Notes under the pieces: generated by a model
What the model saw: the letters and a program-made list of their open reading frames with translations, nothing else
What the model was told of the DNA's origin: nothing
Database searches by the model: none
Position numbers and translations under genes: made by a program
Part shown: positions 20,279 to 56,161 of the stretch, in pieces
How positions within the stretch are numbered: the stretch's first letter is position 1
How the letters are laid out: the number at the start of each line of letters is the position of its first letter
Virus record (IMG/VR): IMGVR_UViG_3300031578_000002
Location: 60,290 to 124,289 of that record
DNA: 64,000 nucleotides
Source: a virus
Direction: 5' to 3' (one strand)

Positions 20279-21391
20279 TTAACTATTTTTAAACGTCATA
20301 CTATAATTTATACTTGTTGGGTAATTGCTAACATAAAAACAATAATTAACACTTGACCAACAACTACTTGGTGAATCAATTGCTGCCGTCGTTGCCGCAG
20401 AAAATAAGTCACCTGAAATTGTTCCAGTATTCGATGAAAAATTACCAGCAATCCATTTAGTTTTTGCAGTAGATGTTGCGGGAATTGCAAGCCAAATATA
20501 GTTTCCAGTTGTATTATAATTTGTAACAATTGTATCGCCAGTACTATGTCCAATACAAACATTACCAGCAGTACAAGCATTATTTATTAGTGCTTGACCG
20601 ATTGTTGGCGTGGTTCCAGTACTTCCCCAAAAATATGGATATACGCCTGTAATTGTAATTTGTTTTGAAGGTGATGTGGTTCCAGCAGCACAACATGTCA
20701 TTCCAATAATTGTTCCATCGCTTTTCTTCGGATAGTCACCTGTTAAATATGATACATTTCCATAAACAACATTATTTCCAATTTGAACTGCTCTTGATGC
20801 GAGAGCCACACTATTAGTTAAGCTAGATGATGATACATTACAAATAACACCACCAATATCGGTATAATTATATGTTGAAGGCAATCCTGTTCTCACCGAA
20901 GGTCCACCACAATAAGCGGGTACGACACTACCTTGACTATATGTTCCACATGCAGTAAATGCAATTTGACAACCCGCTTCAAATAATGTTCCTGATGGCG
21001 TTAATGATAACGTATTTGAATTTGCAACACATGTAGGCGCTAGTGTTGGTGCTAATATTAACTCAAGAACTCTTGATAAATCACAACCAGTAATTGATGT
21101 TAATGAGTTTAATCCACCAACAGTACATGTTGTTGGAGATGTACAATTATAAATTGTTGAGCTGCCTGATGCTGAAGATTGAGCTAATTCAATTTGATTT
21201 TTTGTTGAGGAATATGTTAATACATATCCATTAGTTTCACCTGTCACTATAATAGGTATGCTACCGCCATCACCAGTAAGTGATAATCCACTAACACTTG
21301 TAATTATGGTTTGTCCATCTAATGTCAATGTTGTTCCACTTAATTGTTGAAACTGAAGAGAATCTAAATTCGGACGTGCAAAAAATGTCAT
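20279..21391 (-). CDS. Virion structural protein (paralogue of 16654-17637)
   Basis: N-terminus RPNLDSLQFQQ resembles RPNLNCKQFDQ of the long fibre; C-terminus is shared with 16654-17637. Confidence 0.55.
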   Translation of the reverse strand: MTFFARPNLDSLQFQQLSGTTLTLDGQTIITSVSGLSLTGDGGSIPIIVTGETNGYVLTYSSTKNQIELAQSSASGSSTIYNCTSPTTCTVGGLNSLTSITGCDLSRVLELILAPTLAPTCVANSNTLSLTPSGTLFEAGCQIAFTACGTYSQGSVVPAYCGGPSVRTGLPSTYNYTDIGGVICNVSSSSLTNSVALASRAVQIGNNVVYGNVSYLTGDYPKKSDGTIIGMTCCAAGTTSPSKQITITGVYPYFWGSTGTTPTIGQALINNACTAGNVCIGHSTGDTIVTNYNTTGNYIWLAIPATSTAKTKWIAGNFSSNTGTISGDLFSAATTAAIDSPSSCWSSVNYCFYVSNYPTSINYSMTFKNS

Positions 21392-21551: not shown

Positions 21552-22060
21552 TTTTACTGCAATCACATTTTTTAAAAATCCTGTAATTGACTATTAATTT
21601 TCTATTTATCTTTGACCCAATTTCTTCCCTTATTATATAATTTCAACCATAAATACTATAAACATTTAAAAATAAAATTGAGCAAAGTTTGATATGTTCA
21701 ATGTCAAATCTTTGCCCAATCCATTTTGGAATTATATCTTCTTATATAAGAGAAGAAGTTCTTCCATAATTTCAGCTGTTCAATAACTTTTATCAGGAAT
21801 CTTGCTAACCATAACAATGTTATGCGCTTCACACACCATAAAAGAGCTGAGTATTTCTACTTATCCTAAGTGTGTACCTTTGAGTAACTACTCTTTTAGC
21901 CAAGTTATTTACTCTTTTTTCACAGCCAAAAATCTTTTTTGAAAAAGACTGTACTTCTACAGCCAAAACCATTCTTAATCATCAAATGTTAGACAGCACG
22001 CCTCATTTTTATGAAAAAACTGGTACTGACAGCTAAAAATAATAATGTGGGAATATTTTA
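21552..22060 (-). ncRNA. Putative structured non-coding RNA(s), unassigned family
   Basis: No ORF of 60 aa or more. Several hairpins pair better on the minus strand through G-U pairs (21678-21719 TTGGGCAAAG/CTTTGCTCAA; GCTGTA-GAAG-TACAGT; AGCTG/CAGTT). TTTT(G/A)GCTGT occurs three times. Confidence 0.5.
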
Positions 22061-22174
22061 AAAGTATTTTTTGTTTTTTATGCAAGTTCTACGGACTTGT
22101 GACTTAACCGCTTGTCTAATCATCCTCTAAGAGATAATTGTGGATTCGAACCACTGATTTACTGTAAACACTTT
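22061..22174 (-). tRNA. Circularly permuted tRNA-Tyr(GUA)-like gene
   Basis: Order on the minus strand: T arm GTGG-TTCGAAT-CCAC, acceptor 3' strand ATTATCT, linker CTTAGA, acceptor 5' strand GGATGAT, TA, D arm GAC-AAGCGGTTAA-GTC, anticodon arm CAAGT-CCGTAGA-ACTTG. The outer ends AAAGTGTT/AATACTTT pair. C33 is non-canonical. Confidence 0.6.
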
Positions 22175-22328
22175 ACGTTTTCCCTTTGTATTTTAAAGAA
22201 CTCTACCAAAAGACCAACCATTTGGTATATTATCGCTCTTTTTTATTTTTTTAACACATTTGAATTTGCCATATTATACTAAATTTTAATTTTAATATAA
22301 ATACCAAACAAATTCAAAAAAGCCCAAG

Positions 22329-22465
22329 TAGGGAGAACAGGACTCGAACCTGTAACTCATTGTTTTCAACACAATTGCTTTACCTTTTACTGAAAACACC
22401 ATTAGTTCTCCTTGTGTAAGGAGCATTGAGATAGTATTCTTTGTTTTTTATTTTGCTATCTCCCC
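22329..22465 (-). tRNA. tRNA-like gene (anticodon UGA, short variable loop) with a 60-70 nt insertion in the D arm
   Basis: GGGGAGA/TCTCCCT acceptor stem, TAGC...[insert]...GGTAAAGC, ATTGT-GTTGAAA-ACAAT anticodon arm, ACAGG-TTCGAGT-CCTGT T arm, A73, no encoded CCA. Confidence 0.65.
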
Positions 22466-22538
22466 ATATTAAATATGATAAAGAACTTTAGAAGAAATTT
22501 GTCAGTGTAGTTTTGTTTTTGAAAAACCATCAATTTAC

Positions 22539-23846
22539 TTGGGTAAGTGTAAAACCCATTCATCACGTAGTATGGGTGAGATGTAAGCGGCCACTATAAT
22601 AAAATGTAAATAAAATTTATACTTTCTTTAAACTTTTTGATTTTTCTTGGTATTTATATATGATGTTGAAAGCTTTTAAATATAGACTTAACCCGAATAA
22701 AGAACAAATTGTTCTTCTTAATAAGCATATTGGCGCAAGTAGGTTTCTATATAATTTAGCTTTGGAAACTAAACAAATTGCTTATGCCGGTAATAAACAT
22801 AACCTTTCTTGTTTTGAATTACATTCACAACTAAAAGAATTAAAAGAAGAATGTCCTTGGTTAAAAGAACTTAATTCACAATCTCTACAACAAGCTATAA
22901 CTAATCTAGATAAAGCATATACAACTTTTTTTAAAGGTCAAAATTCATTCCCAAAATTTAAAAAGAAATCTAATGGTGGTAGTTTTAATATACCACAAAG
23001 AGTTATAGTAGAAAATAATAAATTAATTATACCTAAATTTACAAAGAAAAATGGAATAGATATAATCTTACATAGACCAATTAAAGGTGAAATAAGACAA
23101 GCAACAATATCTAAAATACCTACCGGTAAATATTTTGTAAGTATTTTATGTGAAACTGGTGAACAAAATAAACCAAAACCTAAGATTAAAGAAGAAACAA
23201 CAATAGGAATTGATTTAGGGATTAAAGATTTTGTAATTACCTCTAATAGTGAAGTGTTTGACAATCCAAAATATTTAAGAAAGGCACAAGATAAATTAAA
23301 ATATATACAGAGTAAATATTCAAAAAATAAAGGAAAAAAAATAAAACAAAAATTAGCTAAGTTACATGAAAAAGTAACAAATAAAAGAAAAGATTATTTG
23401 CATAAAGTATCAACTAAATTAATTCGTGAGAACCAAACGATTTGTTTAGAAGATTTGAATGTATCAGGTATGATTAAAAATCATAAGTTAGCACAAAGCA
23501 TTAGTGATGTTGGTTGGTCTACATTTGTGACTATGTCAGAATACAAAGCTGAATGGTATGGAACAAATATACTTCGTATTGGTAGATTTGAACCTAGTAG
23601 TAAGACATGTTCATGTTGTGGTAACATTAACGAAGAACTAACATTAAAAGATCGTGAATGGACTTGTGTTAGGTGTAACACTAAACACGACAGAGATATA
23701 AATGCTGCTGTAAATATTAAAAATTTTAGTTTAAGAAATATCTTGTCAGGGACTGACAGGAAAAATCATGACGAACTGCCTACGTTAGTAGGAGTACTGA
23801 CTCATGAAGCCCAACCCATCAGCACTGCTGTGGGTGGGTAGTTCAC
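22539..23846 (+). mobile_element. IS200/IS605-family (IS1341-like) TnpB-only element 1
   Basis: Left-end hairpin ACCCA...TGGGT-GAGATGTAAGCG after TTTAC; right end GAAGCCCAACCCATC...GTGGGTGGGTAGTTCAC. Both ends align with element 2 (54743-56166). Confidence 0.85.
22660..23841 (+). CDS. tnpB: TnpB RNA-guided nuclease
   Basis: HTH KAFKYRL, GIDLGIKD, ICLEDLNV, CSCCG...CVRC zinc finger, HDRDINAA; the catalytic D-E-D triad is intact. Confidence 0.95.
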   Translation: MMLKAFKYRLNPNKEQIVLLNKHIGASRFLYNLALETKQIAYAGNKHNLSCFELHSQLKELKEECPWLKELNSQSLQQAITNLDKAYTTFFKGQNSFPKFKKKSNGGSFNIPQRVIVENNKLIIPKFTKKNGIDIILHRPIKGEIRQATISKIPTGKYFVSILCETGEQNKPKPKIKEETTIGIDLGIKDFVITSNSEVFDNPKYLRKAQDKLKYIQSKYSKNKGKKIKQKLAKLHEKVTNKRKDYLHKVSTKLIRENQTICLEDLNVSGMIKNHKLAQSISDVGWSTFVTMSEYKAEWYGTNILRIGRFEPSSKTCSCCGNINEELTLKDREWTCVRCNTKHDRDINAAVNIKNFSLRNILSGTDRKNHDELPTLVGVLTHEAQPISTAVGG

Positions 23847-23886
23847 TGAAATAACGAACAGTTTCCTTTTTATTTTTTCATTAATT

Positions 23887-23894
23887 TAAAGAAC
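23887..23894 (-). promoter_or_regulatory. boxA-like antitermination motif GTTCTTTA (further copies at 22479-22486 and 22194-22201)
   Basis: An identical octamer precedes each tRNA-like unit and resembles the rrn boxA (G(C/T)TCTTT). Confidence 0.5.
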
Positions 23895-24024: not shown

Positions 24025-27000
24025 TTATTCTTTTTTTATAACAGCTTGACCTTTACGTAGTTTCGTTAATATTTCTTGAACGTTTTTGTTTTTATTATCA
24101 ATTTCATCGGGATCAATTAGGTTTTGCTCAATAACTGATAATGGCAAATCCTCAATTATTTTAGGTTTTGGTATTATCAGTTTTTCTTCCTTAGCTTCTG
24201 AAATTATCTTAACATCATCTAGCTCGATTTCTACTGACTCGGCAATATTTTCAGTTTCTGTATTACCTGTCCATTCAAAAAGCGATGTATCAATATTTGA
24301 TGCTTCGATTTCATCGGTGTCATTAAATAGTTTTCCAGTTTCTAAGTCATCATTATCCTCACAAATTTCTATTAATTTGTTATCTTTAACCTCATTAATA
24401 ATTATTTCAGGTGATTGTTGTATGTTTGATTCAACATTCATATTTATTCTTAATAATTCATTGATCTTTTGTGGATTATTCATAACACCATCACCCACAT
24501 CATTATTATTTAATTCATCAATTAATATTCTTTCTCGATTAATAATTGCCTCATGAATATTTATTGTTGTGGACTTTTCAGCTAATTTATCAGCATTTTT
24601 TTCAAGATTTTCAATGTCCTTTTCATCATAATGTTTTAAATTTTTATATGTTTTAGTATATATGTATCTAGAGTCATTGATAATAATTTCCATAGTATCA
24701 TTATTAAAAATGCAGTCTTCAAATGTTTGACCATCCTTTGCAAATCTAGCTTTTAATATTCTAATGTTTGCAAAGTTTGCCTCTTGTTGTGCTGGTGTTT
24801 TAGCAACGCTCATGAAAAAGTGTGCTTTTTGTATTCTCTTAATACTACCACCTGACTGATGTGCTTCAACAAATTCAGCACCAAAGCCTGAACGGTTTGA
24901 TTGTATAGCCGACCAAGCTGGTATATTAAAATCTGATGATAATGCTTCAAATCCTTTAATTATTGCCAACTCAGCTTCATTTCTATCCGGGGACTTTTTA
25001 TGTGATTCTACACAATCAAGATAATCCAAAACAAGTAGATCGAACTTAAATCCATACTTTTTTTGATAATTGGTCATCCAATTTCGGATATCCATCATCG
25101 TAGTATTTTCTTGACTAAATCTTTTTATTATTAATCTACCTTTACCTTCAAGGGTTTTAACCTTTTCATGCACTACTTTAGTAACTCGCTCATTTTCATC
25201 TTCATCATTAAGCTTACTTAATGCTGACTTAGCCCATATTGTATAATGTTTACGTTTTATTTGGTCTTTAGTATCTTCAAAAATTATTTGTGCAACATTT
25301 TTTTCATCTTCATATGCAGTATTTGCGATAATTGTTAATGCCGTGGTATTATGTGTTAATACATAATCATCAATAACATATAAATGATCATCATTTTCAA
25401 CATATATACAAGTAGCCTCTTCTTCATGAGAATATTCAATATTTTTTATAAATTTATTGTATTCATATTTATTTCGAAATACAATTCTATCGAGTTTGGC
25501 AGGTAATGTACAGGGAATAATATCGTTATTTGGGAAACTTATTGTTAAACGATAATTATTTTTACCGGGAATTTTGATACCAATTTTATTAGTATAAAAT
25601 TTAATTTTTTCGGTTGTTCTACAGGTACCTCCTAATGATAAGACTAACTCTTTAACATTTTTTGATAGTTCTTTTGATACTGTTGTATATATAATTGCCC
25701 CATTTTTTCCAACACCACCATTCGAATCAATTAATCCTTGTAACAATTTTTCTCTATATTCAATAGAATTATATAAATAATTTTGTGGGATAAATTTTGT
25801 ACTCGAATTGGTTCCATATAACCCAAGCTCATTTTCTAATACGCTTCTTGAATTTAGTAAGGATAACCTATACAATTTTTTATAATTCTCTTTTCTGCCT
25901 TCATATTCATGGACAACAATTGATTGATCAATATTTTTTATTTTATCTACTATGAATCTGTCTGATGTTGTTATATACGGTTGATTTTTTCTCGTAATAC
26001 ATCCATCTCCCAATAAAACACCCATAATATATGGGTCAATTTTAACATCAACTTTATTAAATTGAATTGGCATTACGTTTGGTAATCTATAATTCAAACT
26101 GCCATTTAGATTGAAGTCTTTCATCATTTCTGATGTCGTTAATACTTGAAAAGTATGATCTGGAATGCTTAGCGTTTTACCATTTATTTTTGTTTTTCGA
26201 TTTCTTTGTTTAAATGAATTAACCGACCATAAATGTTCTGAATCACAAAACGATGTTGTTTGATCTGAAAAAATGATTTTATATATTTTTCTTATACCTT
26301 GTGGATATACCGCTAGTATTTTTTGTGGATTACCATCACTACCAAATATTGTGTCATTTACTTTTAACGTACCGTTTTCTACCCAACCATTTAATGTCAA
26401 TACTTTATGACTGTTAGGCAATGCTTTTCCTACACCACTTGGCGTTAATATTAATCCAATCTCTCCTTTACCTAAGCCACCACCAGTAAGTGAATCAATC
26501 ACGCCAATACCTGTTGGTATTGTTTCTCTGAATTCTTTTCTTAAAGCACGATCAATACCCTCAGTAACGTCCTCACAGTCATCCTCATCATCGCCAATAT
26601 GTGTTATTTTTTGAAATCTATCCTCGATTGCAACTACAGCGTATTTATTTTTAATTTCACCGGTTTTAACTTTATCAATAATACCCTCAGCTAATTTACG
26701 ATATTCTTGTTGTTTAATAAATCCTGTTGTTGATTTTTGAATTACATCGCCATCATAAAGCATTTGCTTATTTATTATTCTAGTATTCCATAACTCAATA
26801 CGCTTTAAAATACCAAATAACGATTCTTCTTCAACAACATTATTAGGTTTTTTATATCTATTTATTGCATGGTGAATACTTTGATTTTGAAGGTTAGGTA
26901 CTTTTTGAAATTCTTTATAATACTCTAAAATTATTAAAAATAATCGTTTTAAATTTGGATCATCGAAATATTCAATTGCTAGATCGGGTATGACCTTTTC

Positions 27001-27096
27001 AGCAAATTCTGGCTCAACCAATAATTGCCACATTAAATGTTCTTGAAATTCAATGCCTAAATATGCGGATAATGTATTCTCGGATGTGTTTACCAT
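24025..27096 (-). CDS. dnaB: Replicative DnaB/gp41-like helicase with intein and acidic C-terminal tail
   Basis: IPTGIGVIDSLTGGGLGKGE, PSGVGK|TT after splicing, LVLDYLD, WSAIQSNR, LKARFAKDG. Confidence 0.92.
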   Translation of the reverse strand: MVNTSENTLSAYLGIEFQEHLMWQLLVEPEFAEKVIPDLAIEYFDDPNLKRLFLIILEYYKEFQKVPNLQNQSIHHAINRYKKPNNVVEEESLFGILKRIELWNTRIINKQMLYDGDVIQKSTTGFIKQQEYRKLAEGIIDKVKTGEIKNKYAVVAIEDRFQKITHIGDDEDDCEDVTEGIDRALRKEFRETIPTGIGVIDSLTGGGLGKGEIGLILTPSGVGKALPNSHKVLTLNGWVENGTLKVNDTIFGSDGNPQKILAVYPQGIRKIYKIIFSDQTTSFCDSEHLWSVNSFKQRNRKTKINGKTLSIPDHTFQVLTTSEMMKDFNLNGSLNYRLPNVMPIQFNKVDVKIDPYIMGVLLGDGCITRKNQPYITTSDRFIVDKIKNIDQSIVVHEYEGRKENYKKLYRLSLLNSRSVLENELGLYGTNSSTKFIPQNYLYNSIEYREKLLQGLIDSNGGVGKNGAIIYTTVSKELSKNVKELVLSLGGTCRTTEKIKFYTNKIGIKIPGKNNYRLTISFPNNDIIPCTLPAKLDRIVFRNKYEYNKFIKNIEYSHEEEATCIYVENDDHLYVIDDYVLTHNTTALTIIANTAYEDEKNVAQIIFEDTKDQIKRKHYTIWAKSALSKLNDEDENERVTKVVHEKVKTLEGKGRLIIKRFSQENTTMMDIRNWMTNYQKKYGFKFDLLVLDYLDCVESHKKSPDRNEAELAIIKGFEALSSDFNIPAWSAIQSNRSGFGAEFVEAHQSGGSIKRIQKAHFFMSVAKTPAQQEANFANIRILKARFAKDGQTFEDCIFNNDTMEIIINDSRYIYTKTYKNLKHYDEKDIENLEKNADKLAEKSTTINIHEAIINRERILIDELNNNDVGDGVMNNPQKINELLRINMNVESNIQQSPEIIINEVKDNKLIEICEDNDDLETGKLFNDTDEIEASNIDTSLFEWTGNTETENIAESVEIELDDVKIISEAKEEKLIIPKPKIIEDLPLSVIEQNLIDPDEIDNKNKNVQEILTKLRKGQAVIKKE
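25348..26424 (-). mobile_element. Class 3 (Ala1, WCT) intein with LAGLIDADG endonuclease in the DnaB P-loop (359 aa)
   Basis: Starts ALPNSHKV; block B HLWSV (W), block F ATCIYV (C), block G VLTHN (T), Thr+1; LAGLIDADG motifs MGVLLGDG and LQGLIDSNG. Confidence 0.9.
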
Positions 27097-54961: not shown

Positions 54962-56161
54962 ATGAAAGTAATTAATAAGACATATAGATTTAGGATTTCA
55001 CCTAATAAAGAGCAGGAAGTGTTACTAAATAAGCACTTTGGTTGTTCTCGCTTTGTCTATAATTACTTTTTAAATGAACGTAAAGAGCAATATCAACAAG
55101 ATAAGAAATCAGACAATTATTATGCACAAGCAAAAACTCTAACTGATTTAAAAAAGCAAGAAGATACTATTTGGTTAAAAGAGGTAAATAGTCAAACCCT
55201 TCAATTTGCTTTACGTTCTTTAGATACTGCTTACGTAAATTTCTTTAGAGGTAATGCACAATTTCCAAAATTTAAATCAAGAAAACACAAAAATACTTTC
55301 ACAATTCCCCAATTCGGAGTGTTAACCGATGACAAAATATCAATACCTAAATTTAAAGAAGGAATTAAAGTAAAATTACATAGAAAGGTTAATGGCAAAA
55401 TTGGTAAAATGAGTATTACCCGAACACCTACTGGTAAATATTATGTATCAATATTCACGGAACAACATATTGAAGAATTACTTAAAACAAATAAACAAGT
55501 TGGAATTGACCTTGGAATTAAAGATTTTGTAATTACATCTGATAATAAGAAATTTAAAAATAATAAATATACAAAGAAATATGCAAGAGAATTAAAGAAA
55601 GCACAACAGCATCTTTCTCGTAAAACAAAAGGTAGCAATTCGTTTGAAAAACAAAAACTCAAAGTTGCCTTAATTCACGAGAAAATTGCAAGTTGTAGAT
55701 TAGACGCTTTACATAAAGTTTCACATCAACTGGTTAATCAATATGACTTATTATCAGTTGAGGACTTGAATGTAAAAGGTATGATTAAAAACCACAAATT
55801 ATCCAAACATATTGCTGATGCAAGTTGGGGTACTTTTGTTACATTACTACAATACAAATGTAATTGGTATGGAAAAGAACTTGTAAAAGTAAATCGTTTC
55901 TATCCTTCAAGCAAGACTTGTAATGTTTGTGGATGGATAAATCAAGACTTAAATCTTTTGATTAGAGAGTGGACTTGTAATAATTGTGGTGAACATCACG
56001 ACAGAGATGTTAATGCAAGTATCAATATTCTAAAAGAAGGATTAAAAATATATCGTCAGGAACTGGCGATTACAAAGGTGGAGAGTAAATCAGACGTTAG
56101 TAATAACGCACGCTCAATGAAACCTGAAGCCCAACCCATCGCCTTTGGCGTGGGTGGGTAG
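54962..56161 (+). CDS. tnpB: TnpB RNA-guided nuclease
   Basis: KTYRFRISP, GIDLGIKD, LSVEDLNV, CNVCG...CNNC, HDRDVNAS; triad intact. Confidence 0.95.
   Translation: MKVINKTYRFRISPNKEQEVLLNKHFGCSRFVYNYFLNERKEQYQQDKKSDNYYAQAKTLTDLKKQEDTIWLKEVNSQTLQFALRSLDTAYVNFFRGNAQFPKFKSRKHKNTFTIPQFGVLTDDKISIPKFKEGIKVKLHRKVNGKIGKMSITRTPTGKYYVSIFTEQHIEELLKTNKQVGIDLGIKDFVITSDNKKFKNNKYTKKYARELKKAQQHLSRKTKGSNSFEKQKLKVALIHEKIASCRLDALHKVSHQLVNQYDLLSVEDLNVKGMIKNHKLSKHIADASWGTFVTLLQYKCNWYGKELVKVNRFYPSSKTCNVCGWINQDLNLLIREWTCNNCGEHHDRDVNASINILKEGLKIYRQELAITKVESKSDVSNNARSMKPEAQPIAFGVGG

What the first reader, a model, noticed from the sequence alone, without database searches (positions are those of the whole stretch)
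21552..23860. A conserved short RNA module (A-tract / helix / CAGTAAA) marks the breakpoints of interrupted and permuted tRNA-like genes
Seen on the minus strand: ATAAAAAACAAA(A/G)AATACT directly follows the 5' tRNA piece in both tRNA-like genes (18 of 19 identical). GTGTTT(A/T)CAGTAAA directly precedes the 3' piece in both (13 of 14 identical), and AATACT pairs with (A/G)GTGTT. A third copy (AATTACA...TGTGATT-GCAGTAAAA, 21552-21588) stands alone. A fourth (GTTATTTCA|GTAAA) is restored only when TnpB element 1 is removed. The module sits in the D arm in one gene and in the variable region in the other, so it does not depend on position. Known: in archaea and Cyanidioschyzon a bulge-helix-bulge plays this role for intron-containing and permuted tRNAs; this motif is not a BHB and is far too small for a group I or II intron. 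Inference: an unrecognised tRNA splicing/processing signal, small ribozyme or protein-binding tag in a bacterial virus. This is the best candidate for a new system in the window.
Basis: partly seen in the sequence, partly recalled or inferred. Interest (0 to 1): 0.9.

Follow-up and report, generated by a model that had tools for sequence, protein, structure and literature searches.

The report
Ro60-partner RNA handle on tRNA mimics
The repeated short motif is real: it is the shared stem ("handle") of a family of small phage RNAs, two of them tRNA look-alikes, that in related giant phages always lie just upstream of a Ro60-type RNA-binding protein, so it is most likely a protein-binding handle and not a new tRNA splicing signal.

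Summary
Three of the four copies are real; the stand-alone one (21552-21588) is at chance level. The module is larger than described: an outer helix (GGGAA/UUCCC type), an 8-10 bp inner helix, then U(U/A)CAGUAA on one strand and an A-rich AAAACAA tract on the other. In 17 homologues of the permuted gene and 12 of the interrupted gene, both helices and the tRNA arms are kept, with compensatory changes. In related ~350-kb phages the same module closes several RNAs per locus: tRNA-like domains joined at the D loop, the variable loop or the acceptor end, and also non-tRNA hairpins. In 12 of 12 testable relatives this RNA island lies 0.4-1.4 kb upstream, same strand, of a divergent Ro60-like gene. 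That is the signature of Y RNAs (YrlA tRNA mimics). The window's phage has lost that gene, lost several units, and carries a TnpB element in one handle. The same handle design stands beside Ro60-like genes in Salmonella phage Felix O1 and in a 462-kb megaphage; this scan had already noted it in Felix O1-type phages. Splicing is not supported: many acceptor stems are closed by 3-4 nt loops, the complete relative has ordinary tRNA-Tyr/Ser/Asn, and no splicing endonuclease was found. No binding or processing data exist.

The parts
22329..22465 (-). Gene 1. A tRNA-shaped RNA with a 7-bp acceptor stem, a T arm and an anticodon arm (loop GUUGAAA). Its D loop carries the handle as a closed stem-loop.
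   Evidence: and MFE fold (z -2.8). Alignment A3 of 12 homologues: 97.5% of cells paired against 41-53% in slid controls, and 8 pairs with compensatory change. Rfam tRNA 28.4 bits on 22337-22391.
22386..22450 (-). Handle inside gene 1, in order: A-tract UAAAAAACAAAG, helix AAUACUAU/AUGGUGUU, outer helix closed by a loop (CUCCUU-ACAC-AAGGAG), then UUCAGUAAA.
   Evidence: The hairpin covaries (CUCCUU/AAGGAG versus CUCUCU/AGAGAG in relatives).
22428..22434 (-). CUAUCUC, complementary to positions 4-10 of gene 1 (GAGAUAG). This alternative helix competes with both the acceptor stem and the handle helix.
   Evidence: Paired in 100% of 12 homologues, with 2 compensatory pairs in L148 (GAAGUAG/CUACUUC).
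22049..22184 (-). Gene 2. A circularly permuted tRNA mimic in this order: handle 5' strand, T arm, closed acceptor stem (GGAUGAU/AUUAUCU), D arm, anticodon-like arm (loop CCGUAGA), handle 3' strand.
   Evidence: Alignment A1 of 17 homologues: 98.4% of cells paired against 39-56% in slid controls, and 10 compensatory pairs. The MFE fold recovers all helices. Covariance model R1 scores 137 bits, the only hit in the window.
22158..22184 (-). Handle 5' strand of gene 2: GGGAA-AACGU-AAAGUGUUU-ACAGUAAA.
22049..22080 (-). Handle 3' strand of gene 2: UAAAAAACAAAA-AAUACUUU-UAAAAUA-UUCCC.
23846..23866 (-). 5' strand of a third handle-bearing unit (GGAAACUGUUCGUUAUUUCAG), cut off from its continuation by the TnpB element.
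   Evidence: It is orthologous to the 5' strand of the units that flank a normal-order tRNA-like domain in relatives, such as L191 and L200.
22491..22537 (-). Continuation of that unit (UAAAUUGAUGG...AAAAACAAAACUAC...AAUUUCUUC). It resembles the 3' part of the small-cargo units of relatives, so the unit looks like a deletion chimera.
22539..23846 (+). IS605-type TnpB element (ORF 22660-23841) inserted after TTTAC, which is inside the CAG|UAAA of the handle on the RNA strand.
   Evidence: Pfam OrfB_IS605, Cas12f1-like_TNB and HTH_OrfB_IS605. End sequences, and the same right end in a second element.
21552..21588 (-). Not part of the system: a chance-level hairpin plus CAGUAAA.
22194..22201 (-). 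GTTCTTTA, a promoter-like box about 10-20 nt upstream of the first G of gene 2. It also stands at 22479-22486 before gene 1 and at 23887-23894 before the disrupted unit.
   Evidence: Kept before the same units in relatives. The promoter function is inferred.
21750..21765 (-). GGAAGAACUUCUUCUC, a scar where relatives have a full unit (GAAGAACUUGUUGUGAAUACAGUAGA...cargo...ACAACUAAACUUCUUC). Only the outer helix strands are left.

Best explanation
The module is the conserved 'handle' of a family of phage Y-RNA-like non-coding RNAs. It is not removed from them.

Shown:
- Each RNA is closed by the same two-helix stem. The stem carries G(R)A(R)AAC at its outer 5' side, U(U/A)CAGUAA next to the cargo on the 5' strand, and an A-rich AAAACAA tract on the 3' strand.
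- The cargo varies. In gene 2 it is a whole cloverleaf with a closed acceptor stem, entered at the variable-arm position. That is why the gene looks circularly permuted, as YrlA does.
- In gene 1 the same stem is a closed hairpin that protrudes from the D loop of a tRNA-shaped RNA with ordinary ends.
- In relatives the handle also flanks normal-order tRNA-like domains and small non-tRNA hairpins.
- The RNA island lies directly upstream of a divergent Ro60-like gene in every testable relative.

Inferred:
- The handle is the binding site of that Ro60-like ring protein.
- The variable cargo, here tRNA mimics, tethers the protein to partners such as tRNA-binding enzymes or nucleases, as Y RNAs tether Ro60 to PNPase.
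- Homologues with a 7-bp acceptor stem followed by GCCA and an A-rich linker may be opened by RNase P, as M. smegmatis YrlA is.

In this window the system is an orphan in decay. The Ro60-like and ARPP-1 genes are absent, several units are deleted, and one handle is split by a TnpB element. Genes 1 and 2 still fold.
For: - Structure and covariation: gene 2 family; gene 1 family; independent MFE folds.
- The same module on many cargos within one locus. Model R1 gives weak end-to-end hits on those units, on the island strand only. Enrichment of the pattern.
- The neighbouring 546-aa protein is Ro60-like. ESM features point to TROVE clusters. In the AlphaFold model, the ten best PDB matches are all Ro60/Rsr over about 500 columns, E 8e-7 to 1.5e-4.
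- Gene 2 homologues lie 399-1364 nt upstream of that gene on the same strand in 12 of 12 loci with enough sequence.
- Published precedent: YrlA Y RNAs lie within 4 kb of Ro60 on the same strand. They have paired ends and T, acceptor-like and D arms. M. smegmatis YrlA is cut by RNase P and receives CCA (PMC4201824). Phage phiLo has Yrl1 and Yrl2 upstream of its Ro60 (PMC12135203).
- The same handle design in unrelated phages. Felix O1 has four units, CAGAAGACCNNN-UACAGCAA...NNNGGUCUGG, one with a permuted tRNA domain, just after ORF86 (DUF2828+DUF7788). Megaphage LR756500 has GGAGAACUAAUAAUUAUUACAGAAU-tRNA-like-...UCUCC 1.5 kb upstream of its Ro60-like gene.
- The mimics are redundant for decoding. 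The complete relative has ordinary tRNA-Tyr(GUA), Ser(UGA) and Asn(GUU) elsewhere.
Against: - No binding, transcript-end or processing data exist.
- The window's own contig has no Ro60-like gene, though it is only about 46% complete.
- Pfam TROVE does not match the relatives' protein. The model has only moderate confidence (pLDDT 64, TM 0.3-0.4).
- No Rfam Y RNA or YrlA model matches the RNAs.
- The YrlA motif GNCGAAN0-1G is only approximated (AACGAAAAG in most, CGUA in the window). The stem leaves the tRNA-like domain at another place than in YrlA.
- Gene 1 has free tRNA-type ends and a conserved U33-UGA-A37 loop in 9 of 12 homologues, which would also suit a real tRNA.
- The conserved alternative pairing of CUAUCUC with positions 4-10 is unexplained by this model.
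Confidence: 0.6

Rival explanations
1. The module is a tRNA processing signal, a functional analogue of the archaeal/red-algal bulge-helix-bulge. An endonuclease would cut both strands next to the cargo and a ligase would join the ends. That would splice gene 1 and circularise gene 2, which RNase P and a 3' nuclease would then open, yielding working tRNAs.
For: - Both genes become ARAGORN-callable tRNAs once the module is removed in silico.
- Seven of 17 gene 2 homologues encode discriminator G plus CCA and a short A-rich linker between the 3' and 5' acceptor strands.
- Gene 1 keeps a U33-UGA-A37 loop in 9 of 12 homologues.
- The complete relative encodes Rnl1-like and Rnl2-like RNA ligases.
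Against: - The same module closes non-tRNA hairpins.
- Nine of 17 gene 2 homologues close the acceptor stem with a 3-4 nt loop on an 8-9 bp stem, leaving no place for end processing.
- Anticodon-like loops of gene 2 vary freely and often lack U33.
- After 'splicing', the D stem of gene 1 would have only 2 standard pairs.
- ARAGORN accepts a wide range of junctions, so no defined splice site emerges.
- Neither the window's contig nor the complete relative encodes a tRNA-splicing endonuclease or RtcB.
- The relative already has canonical tRNAs with the same anticodons.
- Contigs from RNA libraries are colinear with the DNA over gene 2. This is weak evidence, since contigs may derive from DNA or from precursors.
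Confidence: 0.12
2. The RNAs work without any dedicated protein. The handle would be a structural clamp, a long extra arm that holds together and stabilises two-piece or expanded tRNAs. These could serve as decoys for host anticodon nucleases or other tRNA-directed defences.
For: - The window keeps genes 1 and 2 foldable although no Ro60-like gene is nearby.
- The anticodon-like loops resemble Tyr/Asn/Lys loops with position 33 altered.
- The handle holds the two halves of gene 2 together, as in two-piece tmRNA.
Against: - This does not explain why loop nucleotides (UACAGUAA, AAAACAA, GRAGAAC) are conserved across different cargos and across distant phages.
- It does not explain the 12 of 12 linkage to the Ro60-like gene.
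- The window's island shows deletions and a transposon insertion, which suits decay after loss of the partner.
Confidence: 0.12
3. The module is the footprint or a miniature derivative of an IS200/IS605 (TnpB) element that inserted at TTAC into tRNA genes.
For: On the + strand the module reads TTTAC|TG..., which is the target and TAM-type sequence of the resident TnpB element. That element sits exactly there in one copy.
Against: - The module has none of the element's end hairpins.
- It is kept at orthologous positions, with RNA-type compensatory changes, in many phages that have no TnpB there.
- The simpler reading is that the element uses a TTAC which happens to lie in the conserved CAGUAA.
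Confidence: 0.02
4. The module is a small self-cleaving ribozyme whose helices can be open or closed, as in permuted hammerhead or twister types.
For: It has a conserved internal-loop sequence between two variable helices, and it occurs in circularly permuted forms.
Against: No Rfam ribozyme family matches, even at E up to 10. No hammerhead, twister, pistol or hatchet core sequence is present. Nothing indicates cleavage.
Confidence: 0.03

Closest known systems
YrlA/YrlB Y RNAs bound by bacterial and phage Ro60 (Rsr): Salmonella, M. smegmatis, mycobacteriophages (Chen et al. 2014, PMC4201824); Yrl1/Yrl2 of Thermus phage phiLo (PMC12135203)
   Same: - Several small RNA genes lie in tandem just upstream of a Ro60-type gene on the same strand.
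- The 5' and 3' ends pair into a stem with conserved unpaired nucleotides.
- The cargo is a tRNA-like domain with a T arm, a closed acceptor-like stem and a D arm, so the gene looks permuted relative to tRNA.
- Some members have a 7-bp acceptor stem that could be opened by RNase P.
   Different: - No Rfam or sequence match.
- The handle motif is U(U/A)CAGUAA plus an A-tract, not GNCGAAN0-1G.
- The stem leaves the cloverleaf at the variable-arm position (gene 2) or the D loop (gene 1), not the anticodon-stem position.
- A separate anticodon-like arm is kept.
- There are up to 5-6 units per locus.
- The partner protein is so divergent that Pfam TROVE misses it, and in this window the protein gene is absent.
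Four handle-bearing RNAs next to the DUF2828/DUF7788 (Ro60-like) gene ORF86 of Salmonella phage Felix O1. Noted earlier in this scan; I know of no publication.
   Same: The design is the same: GAAGA(A/C)C, a covarying stem, UACAGYAA next to the cargo, and an A-rich tract before the 3' strand. One of the four units carries a permuted tRNA-like domain with a closed acceptor. I read this directly.
   Different: - The stem sequence differs (GACCNN/NNGGUC).
- The units lie downstream of the protein gene, inside the tRNA cluster.
- The protein family is different: DUF2828/DUF7788 match in Pfam, and there is no detectable similarity to the jumbo-phage protein.
- No unit has the handle inside a D loop.
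Intron-containing, split and circularly permuted tRNA genes processed at bulge-helix-bulge motifs (archaea, Cyanidioschyzon merolae)
   Same: The 3' half lies upstream of the 5' half with a short linker at the acceptor end. The interruptions sit in the D loop and the variable region. The flanking sequences pair with each other.
   Different: - There is no 3-nt bulge / 4-bp helix / 3-nt bulge geometry.
- No splicing endonuclease gene is present.
- The same flanks enclose non-tRNA cargos.
- Many acceptor stems are sealed by tiny loops.
- The setting is a bacterial virus.
Class I RNAs of dictyostelid amoebae (PMC7919456)
   Same: The plan is the same: a short stem joins the 5' and 3' ends, a conserved ~11-nt motif lies next to the 5' stem strand, and the rest is variable. 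I could not verify the letters in the text held.
   Different: They are eukaryotic, 42-65 nt long, have no tRNA-like cargo, and have no reported Ro60 link. The resemblance is a lead only.

Membership tests
YrlA-type Y RNA (Ro60 partner RNA) | Encoded within about 4 kb of a Ro60 orthologue, on the same strand | tested here: inconclusive
   Met in relatives: 12 of 12 loci with enough sequence, at 399-1364 nt. The Ro60-like call rests. Not met in the window: no Ro60-like gene in the 141-kb contig.
YrlA-type Y RNA (Ro60 partner RNA) | The 5' and 3' ends pair into a stem that holds the protein-binding site | tested here: met
   Helices 1-5/140-144 and 10-19/124-133 of A1 are 98-100% paired, with 3 compensatory pairs. 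Protein binding itself was not tested.
YrlA-type Y RNA (Ro60 partner RNA) | tRNA-like domain with a T arm, a closed acceptor-like stem and a D arm | tested here: met
   T loop UUCGAAU, D loop with GG, and the acceptor closed by a 3-9 nt loop.
YrlA-type Y RNA (Ro60 partner RNA) | GNCGAAN0-1G motif near the 5' end | tested here: not met
   The family has GGGAAAACGAAAAG; CGAA is present in 10 of 17, and the first G and the spacing do not fit. The window has CGUA.
YrlA-type Y RNA (Ro60 partner RNA) | Match to the curated covariance model (Rfam YrlA; also Y_RNA) | tested here: not met
   No such hit at E up to 10 in the window region, or at E up to 5 in a relative's island.
YrlA-type Y RNA (Ro60 partner RNA) | The main stem takes the place of the anticodon stem | tested here: not met
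   In gene 2 a separate 5-bp/7-nt anticodon-like arm follows the D arm, and the main stem sits between it and the T arm, in the variable-arm position. In gene 1 it sits in the D loop.
YrlA-type Y RNA (Ro60 partner RNA) | Bound by Ro60 in vivo or in vitro | not testable with these tools
   Needs pull-down or EMSA.
Functional tRNA | Contiguous cloverleaf recognised by tRNA finders | tested here: not met
   ARAGORN finds 0 genes in the window and the contig. Rfam tRNA gives only a partial match of 28.4 bits, below the cut-off of 29. Both genes are recognised only after in-silico rearrangement.
Functional tRNA | U33 and a stable anticodon; free acceptor end with CCA or a site for its addition | tested here: inconclusive
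   Gene 1: U33-UGA in 9 of 12, ends free. Gene 2: position 33 is C in the window and G, A or U elsewhere. The loops vary, and the acceptor is sealed in 9 of 17 and has GCCA in 7 of 17.
BHB-type tRNA intron / permuted tRNA gene | Bulge-helix-bulge (3-nt bulge, 4-bp helix, 3-nt bulge) at the exon-intron junctions | tested here: not met
   The junctions are a 9-12 nt A-rich strand opposite U(U/A)CAGUAA(A), next to an 8-10 bp helix.
BHB-type tRNA intron / permuted tRNA gene | Splicing endonuclease and ligase available | tested here: inconclusive
   PF01974 and RtcB are absent from G000 and the complete relative G001. Rnl1-like and Rnl2-like ligases are present in G001. Host enzymes are unknown.
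IS200/IS605 end or miniature element | Subterminal hairpins like those of the resident element; presence/absence polymorphism | tested here: not met
   There is no similarity to the element ends. The module is fixed at orthologous sites in all relatives.
Ro60/TROVE protein (the neighbour in relatives, not in the window) | HEAT-repeat ring plus vWA domain with a MIDAS motif; match to TROVE | tested here: inconclusive
   The model has a helical-repeat N-terminal part and an alpha/beta C-terminal part with a conserved DxSxS. The ten best PDB hits are all Ro60/Rsr, E 8e-7 to 1.5e-4, but TM is only 0.26-0.39. ESM features point to TROVE clusters. Pfam TROVE gives no match even at E 10.

The most novel reading that the evidence does not exclude
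The handle is a true, position-independent RNA cut-and-join signal of bacterial viruses. Cleavage next to UACAGUAA and the A-tract, followed by ligation by the phage's own Rnl1/Rnl2-type ligases, would turn interrupted (D-loop) and permuted (variable-loop) genes into working tRNAs. The neighbouring Ro60-like ring would act as the chaperone or platform for this reaction. It would be the first non-BHB, non-group-I tRNA splicing and permutation system in the bacterial world.
Probability: 0.07. Interest if true: 0.92.

Novelty: new variant of a known kind. Interest (0 to 1): 0.55.

Why it matters
Ro60-Y RNA particles are known from animals, a few bacteria and a few phages, but their RNA partners are hard to find by sequence. 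Here one short, recognisable handle marks several partner RNAs per locus in a large clade of ~350-kb environmental phages. The same design recurs beside Ro60-like genes in Felix O1 and in a megaphage.

- The handle gives a practical search key for an unannotated RNA family.
- The family shows that the tRNA-like cargo can be attached to the handle at three different points of the cloverleaf. That bears on how such mimics evolve from tRNA genes.
- It offers a tractable model for testing what phage Ro60 particles do, since Felix O1 is cultured.
- For annotation, it warns that 'split' or 'permuted' tRNA genes in phages may be Y-like mimics rather than spliced tRNAs.

Tried and rejected
- ARAGORN, with and without the intron option, on the whole contig found nothing.
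- Rfam at gathering and at permissive E-values gave only partial tRNA matches and noise. No Y RNA, YrlA, ribozyme, GOLLD/ROOL or tmRNA family matched.
- blastn of the region against GenBank phages found no match.
- Scan for the A-tract 18-mer in IMG/VR: 57 hits, of which only 6 (one relative) were real and the rest were coding or chance. Scan for CAGTAAAAGGTAAAGC: more than 116 hits, mostly coding.
- Pfam TROVE, RtcB and tRNA-intron endonuclease searches in the contig and in a complete relative were negative.
- phmmer of the 573-aa ORF against PDB sequences, and Pfam at E 10, gave nothing. The Ro60 call rests on fold and language-model evidence only.
- I tried to show that the 'third copy' is a relic of the lost ARPP-1 gene's 3' end. 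tblastn gave nothing significant, so I dropped the idea. The copy is simply chance-level.
- RNA evidence: for the window itself only 4% of words were found in RNA runs. For a relative, 18 metatranscriptome runs (mostly peat, 17 studies) hold 10-23% of the island's words. Contigs of 247-355 nt cover gene 2 and its neighbours colinearly. Contigs cannot show ends, strand or splicing, and DNA carry-over is not excluded. This shows presence in RNA libraries only.
- hhalign between the jumbo-phage Ro60-like family and Felix O1 ORF86 showed no similarity.
- The letters of the Dictyostelium Class I motif could not be verified in the text held.


Full report
**What is in the window**

The window is part of a 141-kb, 29% G+C IMG/VR virus contig that is rated about 46% complete. 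The finding lies in a 2.6-kb non-coding gap on the minus strand. The gap is bounded upstream by a DnaB-like helicase gene (24025-27096) and downstream by a 370-aa ORF (20279-21391).

Reading the minus strand confirms the two strong copies of the module:
- Gene 1 (22465-22329) is GGGGAGA-UA-GCAAAA, then an insert of about 65 nt, then AGGUAAAGC, an anticodon arm, a T arm and UCUCCCU-A.
- Gene 2 (22184-22049) has the T arm and the 3' acceptor strand first, and after them the 5' acceptor strand, a canonical D arm and an anticodon-like arm.

ARAGORN sees no tRNA in the whole contig. Rfam sees only the 3' part of gene 1, at 28.4 bits. After in-silico removal of the insert, or re-permutation, ARAGORN calls tRNA(UGA) and tRNA(GUA) at its default threshold. 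It does so for a wide range of junctions. The pieces are therefore truly tRNA-shaped, but no precise splice point is implied.

**Relatives and structure**

Pattern scans of IMG/VR brought in orthologues. There are 17 distinct gene 2 sequences (alignment A1) and 12 distinct gene 1 sequences (A3).

In gene 2 the RNA starts at GGGAA, just after a conserved GTTCTTTAAA...ACAAA box, and ends at UUCCC.
- GGGAA pairs with UUCCC.
- AAAAGUGUUU pairs with AAAUACUUUU.
- Between these lie the T arm, an acceptor stem that is closed, the D arm and a 5-bp/7-nt arm.
- On A1, 98.4% of cells pair, against 39-56% when partners are slid. Ten pairs show compensatory change, three of them in the inner helix of the module.

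In gene 1 the same elements appear in the other topology. The A-tract and the inner-helix strand come first, the outer helix is closed by a tetraloop (CUCCUU/AAGGAG, covarying with CUCUCU/AGAGAG), and then come the other inner-helix strand and UUCAGUAAA.
- 97.5% of cells pair, with eight compensatory pairs.
- MFE folding of the window's own two sequences recovers these structures.

One oddity remains. CUAUCUC in the gene 1 insert is complementary to positions 4-10 of the RNA in all 12 homologues, and it covaries in L148. This helix competes with the acceptor stem and is unexplained.

**The module is a cassette used on many cargos**

The flanks of the gene 2 orthologues show a conserved island of non-coding RNAs. 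Many of its units carry the same cassette:
- The 5' strand is G(R)A(R)AAC(U)G, then a helix strand, then U(U/A)ACAGUAA.
- The 3' strand is AAAACAA, then the complementary helix strand, then the complement of the outer helix.

The cargos differ:
- the D-loop type (gene 1, and a variant that starts GGGGAAGUAUGCG);
- the permuted type (gene 2);
- normal-order tRNA-like domains, with the cassette at the acceptor end;
- small hairpins with no tRNA features.

A covariance model of gene 2 (R1) finds full-length orthologues in every island. It finds diverged ones in L193, L195 and L197 at 59-71 bits. It also gives weak end-to-end hits on the other units, always on the island strand. A simple pattern for the 5' strand hits 2-5 times per island, against 13 times in 1.5 Mb of unrelated loci (the pattern was derived from these data).

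It is split by an IS605-type TnpB element that inserted after TTTAC, which is within CAG|UAAA on the RNA strand.

It has no outer helix, no A-tract and no orthologue. Moreover, 27-50% of all CAGTAAA sites in this AT-rich contig have a comparable upstream hairpin.

**The neighbour gene**

In relatives the island is followed by a 546-aa ORF and an ARPP-1-domain ORF. Pfam and PDB sequence searches give nothing for the 546-aa protein. Other evidence points to Ro60:
- A protein-language-model search places it among TROVE/vWA_Ro60 clusters.
- An AlphaFold model built on 23 homologues (pLDDT 64) has a helical-repeat N-terminal part and an alpha/beta C-terminal part with a conserved DxSxS.
- The ten best Foldseek matches of that model in the PDB are all Ro60/Rsr. 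They align over about 500 columns with E from 8e-7 to 1.5e-4, although TM is only 0.26-0.39.

I take it as a divergent Ro60 orthologue, with moderate confidence.

Gene 2 orthologues lie 399-1364 nt upstream of this gene on the same strand in 12 of 12 loci that reach far enough. The four loci without it end too early.

The window's contig has no such gene. Comparison with a relative shows what the window has lost:
- the Ro60-like and ARPP-1 genes;
- the island's tRNA-Met;
- the cargo of one unit;
- a whole downstream unit, of which only the scar GGAAGAAC|UUCUUC at 21750-21765 remains.

Other relatives (L067-L069, L073) have lost still more. The island looks like a dispensable accessory module, and in this window it is decaying.

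**Comparison with what is known**

Chen et al. 2014 (PMC4201824) defined YrlA Y RNAs by features that match gene 2:
- They are encoded within 4 kb of Ro60 on the same strand.
- Their ends are paired, with a conserved 5'-strand motif.
- They have a tRNA-like domain with T, acceptor-like, D and V arms.
- The M. smegmatis RNA, which has a 7-bp acceptor stem, is cut by RNase P and receives CCA.

Phage phiLo has two such RNAs upstream of its Ro60 (PMC12135203). Gene 2 has this architecture.

It also differs:
- The stem emerges at the variable-arm position, not the anticodon-stem position.
- A separate anticodon-like arm is present.
- The conserved motif is different.
- No Rfam model matches.

Seven of 17 homologues have a 7-bp acceptor stem followed by G-CCA and an A-rich linker. 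Nine seal an 8-9 bp stem with a 3-4 nt loop. Only some could therefore be opened in the M. smegmatis manner.

**Independent support from distant phages**

Earlier notes of this scan report a 'stem plus UACAGCAA' module on four RNAs next to a Ro60-like gene in Felix O1-type phages. I checked this myself.
- In Felix O1 (AF320576), TACAGCAA occurs four times within 0.7 kb. Each occurrence is preceded by CAGAAGACCNNN and followed, after the cargo, by NNNGGUCUGG, with covariation (GACCAA/UUGGUC against GACCGU/ACGGUC).
- The fourth unit carries a T arm, a sealed acceptor stem and a D arm.
- The units start about 0.3 kb after ORF86, which matches DUF2828 and DUF7788. In the Atlas search these families share a cluster with TROVE.
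- In megaphage LR756500, whose Ro60-like gene is 26% identical to the jumbo-phage one, a unit GGAGAACUAAUAAUUAUUACAGAAU-tRNA-like-...AAUAAUUGUUGAAUUAUCUCC lies 1.5 kb upstream on the same strand.

So the same handle design goes with Ro60-type genes in three very different phage groups.

**Weighing the rivals**

A splicing or permutation-processing signal is the most interesting alternative.
- In its favour: the pieces are tRNA-shaped, some linkers encode CCA, the gene 1 anticodon loop is conserved, and the complete relative has Rnl1-like and Rnl2-like ligases.
- Against it: there are non-tRNA cargos, sealed acceptor stems, and variable loops without U33. A spliced gene 1 would have a 2-bp D stem, and no defined junction emerges. 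No splicing endonuclease or RtcB is encoded.
- The complete relative already has ordinary tRNA-Tyr(GUA), Ser(UGA) and Asn(GUU) among 31 canonical tRNAs.
- Metatranscriptome contigs from peat cover a relative's gene 2 and its neighbours colinearly. Contigs cannot exclude processing or DNA carry-over.

A transposon footprint is excluded by the covariation and by the orthologous conservation. A ribozyme has no support.

**Verdict**

The thing is a new variant of the Ro60/Y-RNA theme. It is a handle-plus-cargo RNA family whose tRNA-mimic cargos are attached at three different points of the cloverleaf. In this window it survives as an orphan in decay, with a transposon in one handle. Nothing here has been shown biochemically: the link between the handle and the Ro60-like protein is inferred from gene neighbourhood in three phage groups.

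Noticed in passing
window 21965-22033 (-), with a terminator-like hairpin at 21942-21964: A further conserved non-coding element (GCUGUCAGUACCAG...GGCGUGCUGUCUAACAUUUGAUGAUUAAGAAUGG) follows gene 2. It is kept in relatives, and even in contigs that have lost genes 1 and 2 and the Ro60-like gene (L067/L068, right after tRNA-Met). It has no Rfam match.
   Followed up: partly
window 22539-23846 (+) and 54962-56161 (+): There are two TnpB (IS605-type) elements with the same right end (...GGGTGGGTAGTTCAC). The first sits after TTTAC inside the RNA handle, so the conserved CAGUAA of the handle supplies its TTAC-type target. The other two handles in the window share TTTAC plus the next 2-5 bases with that site.
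   Followed up: partly
window 24025-27096 (-): The DnaB-like helicase ORF (1023 aa) carries LAGLIDADG/homing-endonuclease domains at residues ~436-497. This suggests an intein or an inserted endonuclease.
   Followed up: no
L104 and L139 (contigs of 108 and 299 kb), gene 1 orthologue: Gene 1 is interrupted by a ~1.0-kb insertion within the handle, between GAUACUAU and ACUCACUGCUCUC. The insertion holds small ORFs on both strands and its nature is unknown.
   Followed up: partly
A1 columns 49-71 (gene 2 homologues in L021, L070, L194, L196, L198, L207, L211 against the rest): There are two subtypes of the acceptor hairpin. One has a 7-bp stem followed by G-CCA and an A-rich 4-5 nt linker, which could be opened by RNase P and has an encoded CCA. 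The other has an 8-9 bp stem sealed by AAU, AGU, UUU or UUCG. The window's copy has neither CCA nor a tight loop (CUUAGA).
   Followed up: partly
relatives, e.g. L070 4680-5777 (+): An ARPP-1-domain protein (PF20208, predicted to act on ribose or ADP-ribose moieties; PMC9503650) directly follows the Ro60-like gene in relatives. The Ro60-like/ARPP pairing is not among the ARPP gene neighbourhoods quoted in the passages of that paper I read, and the paper's main text mentions neither TROVE nor Ro60.
   Followed up: no
G001 (complete 349-kb relative) 238-268 kb; L222 10486-10563: The relative has 31 canonical tRNAs in one cluster, including a tRNA with anticodon CUA (an amber-reading tRNA, which ARAGORN labels 'Pyl'). 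An Rnl1-like RNA ligase gene lies inside the cluster (248.2-248.8 kb). This region is not on the window's contig.
   Followed up: no
L187 8150-9050 (relative's island): Eighteen metatranscriptome runs, mostly peat, from 17 studies hold 10-23% of the island's words. Contig depths reach ~70-100 over the RNA units, which suggests these RNAs are abundant in RNA libraries. No silent control stretch was laid.
   Followed up: partly
relatives' islands (e.g. L187, L196, L200: ...UCCCUGUUGUCCCUGUGGCAACACAAACUUCGGGG...): Further conserved small hairpin RNAs without the handle lie between the units: GUCCCUGUGGCAACAC, and AGCCUCUUGCGAAAGCAAUGUAAC. Their function is unknown, and they are absent from the window.
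   Followed up: no
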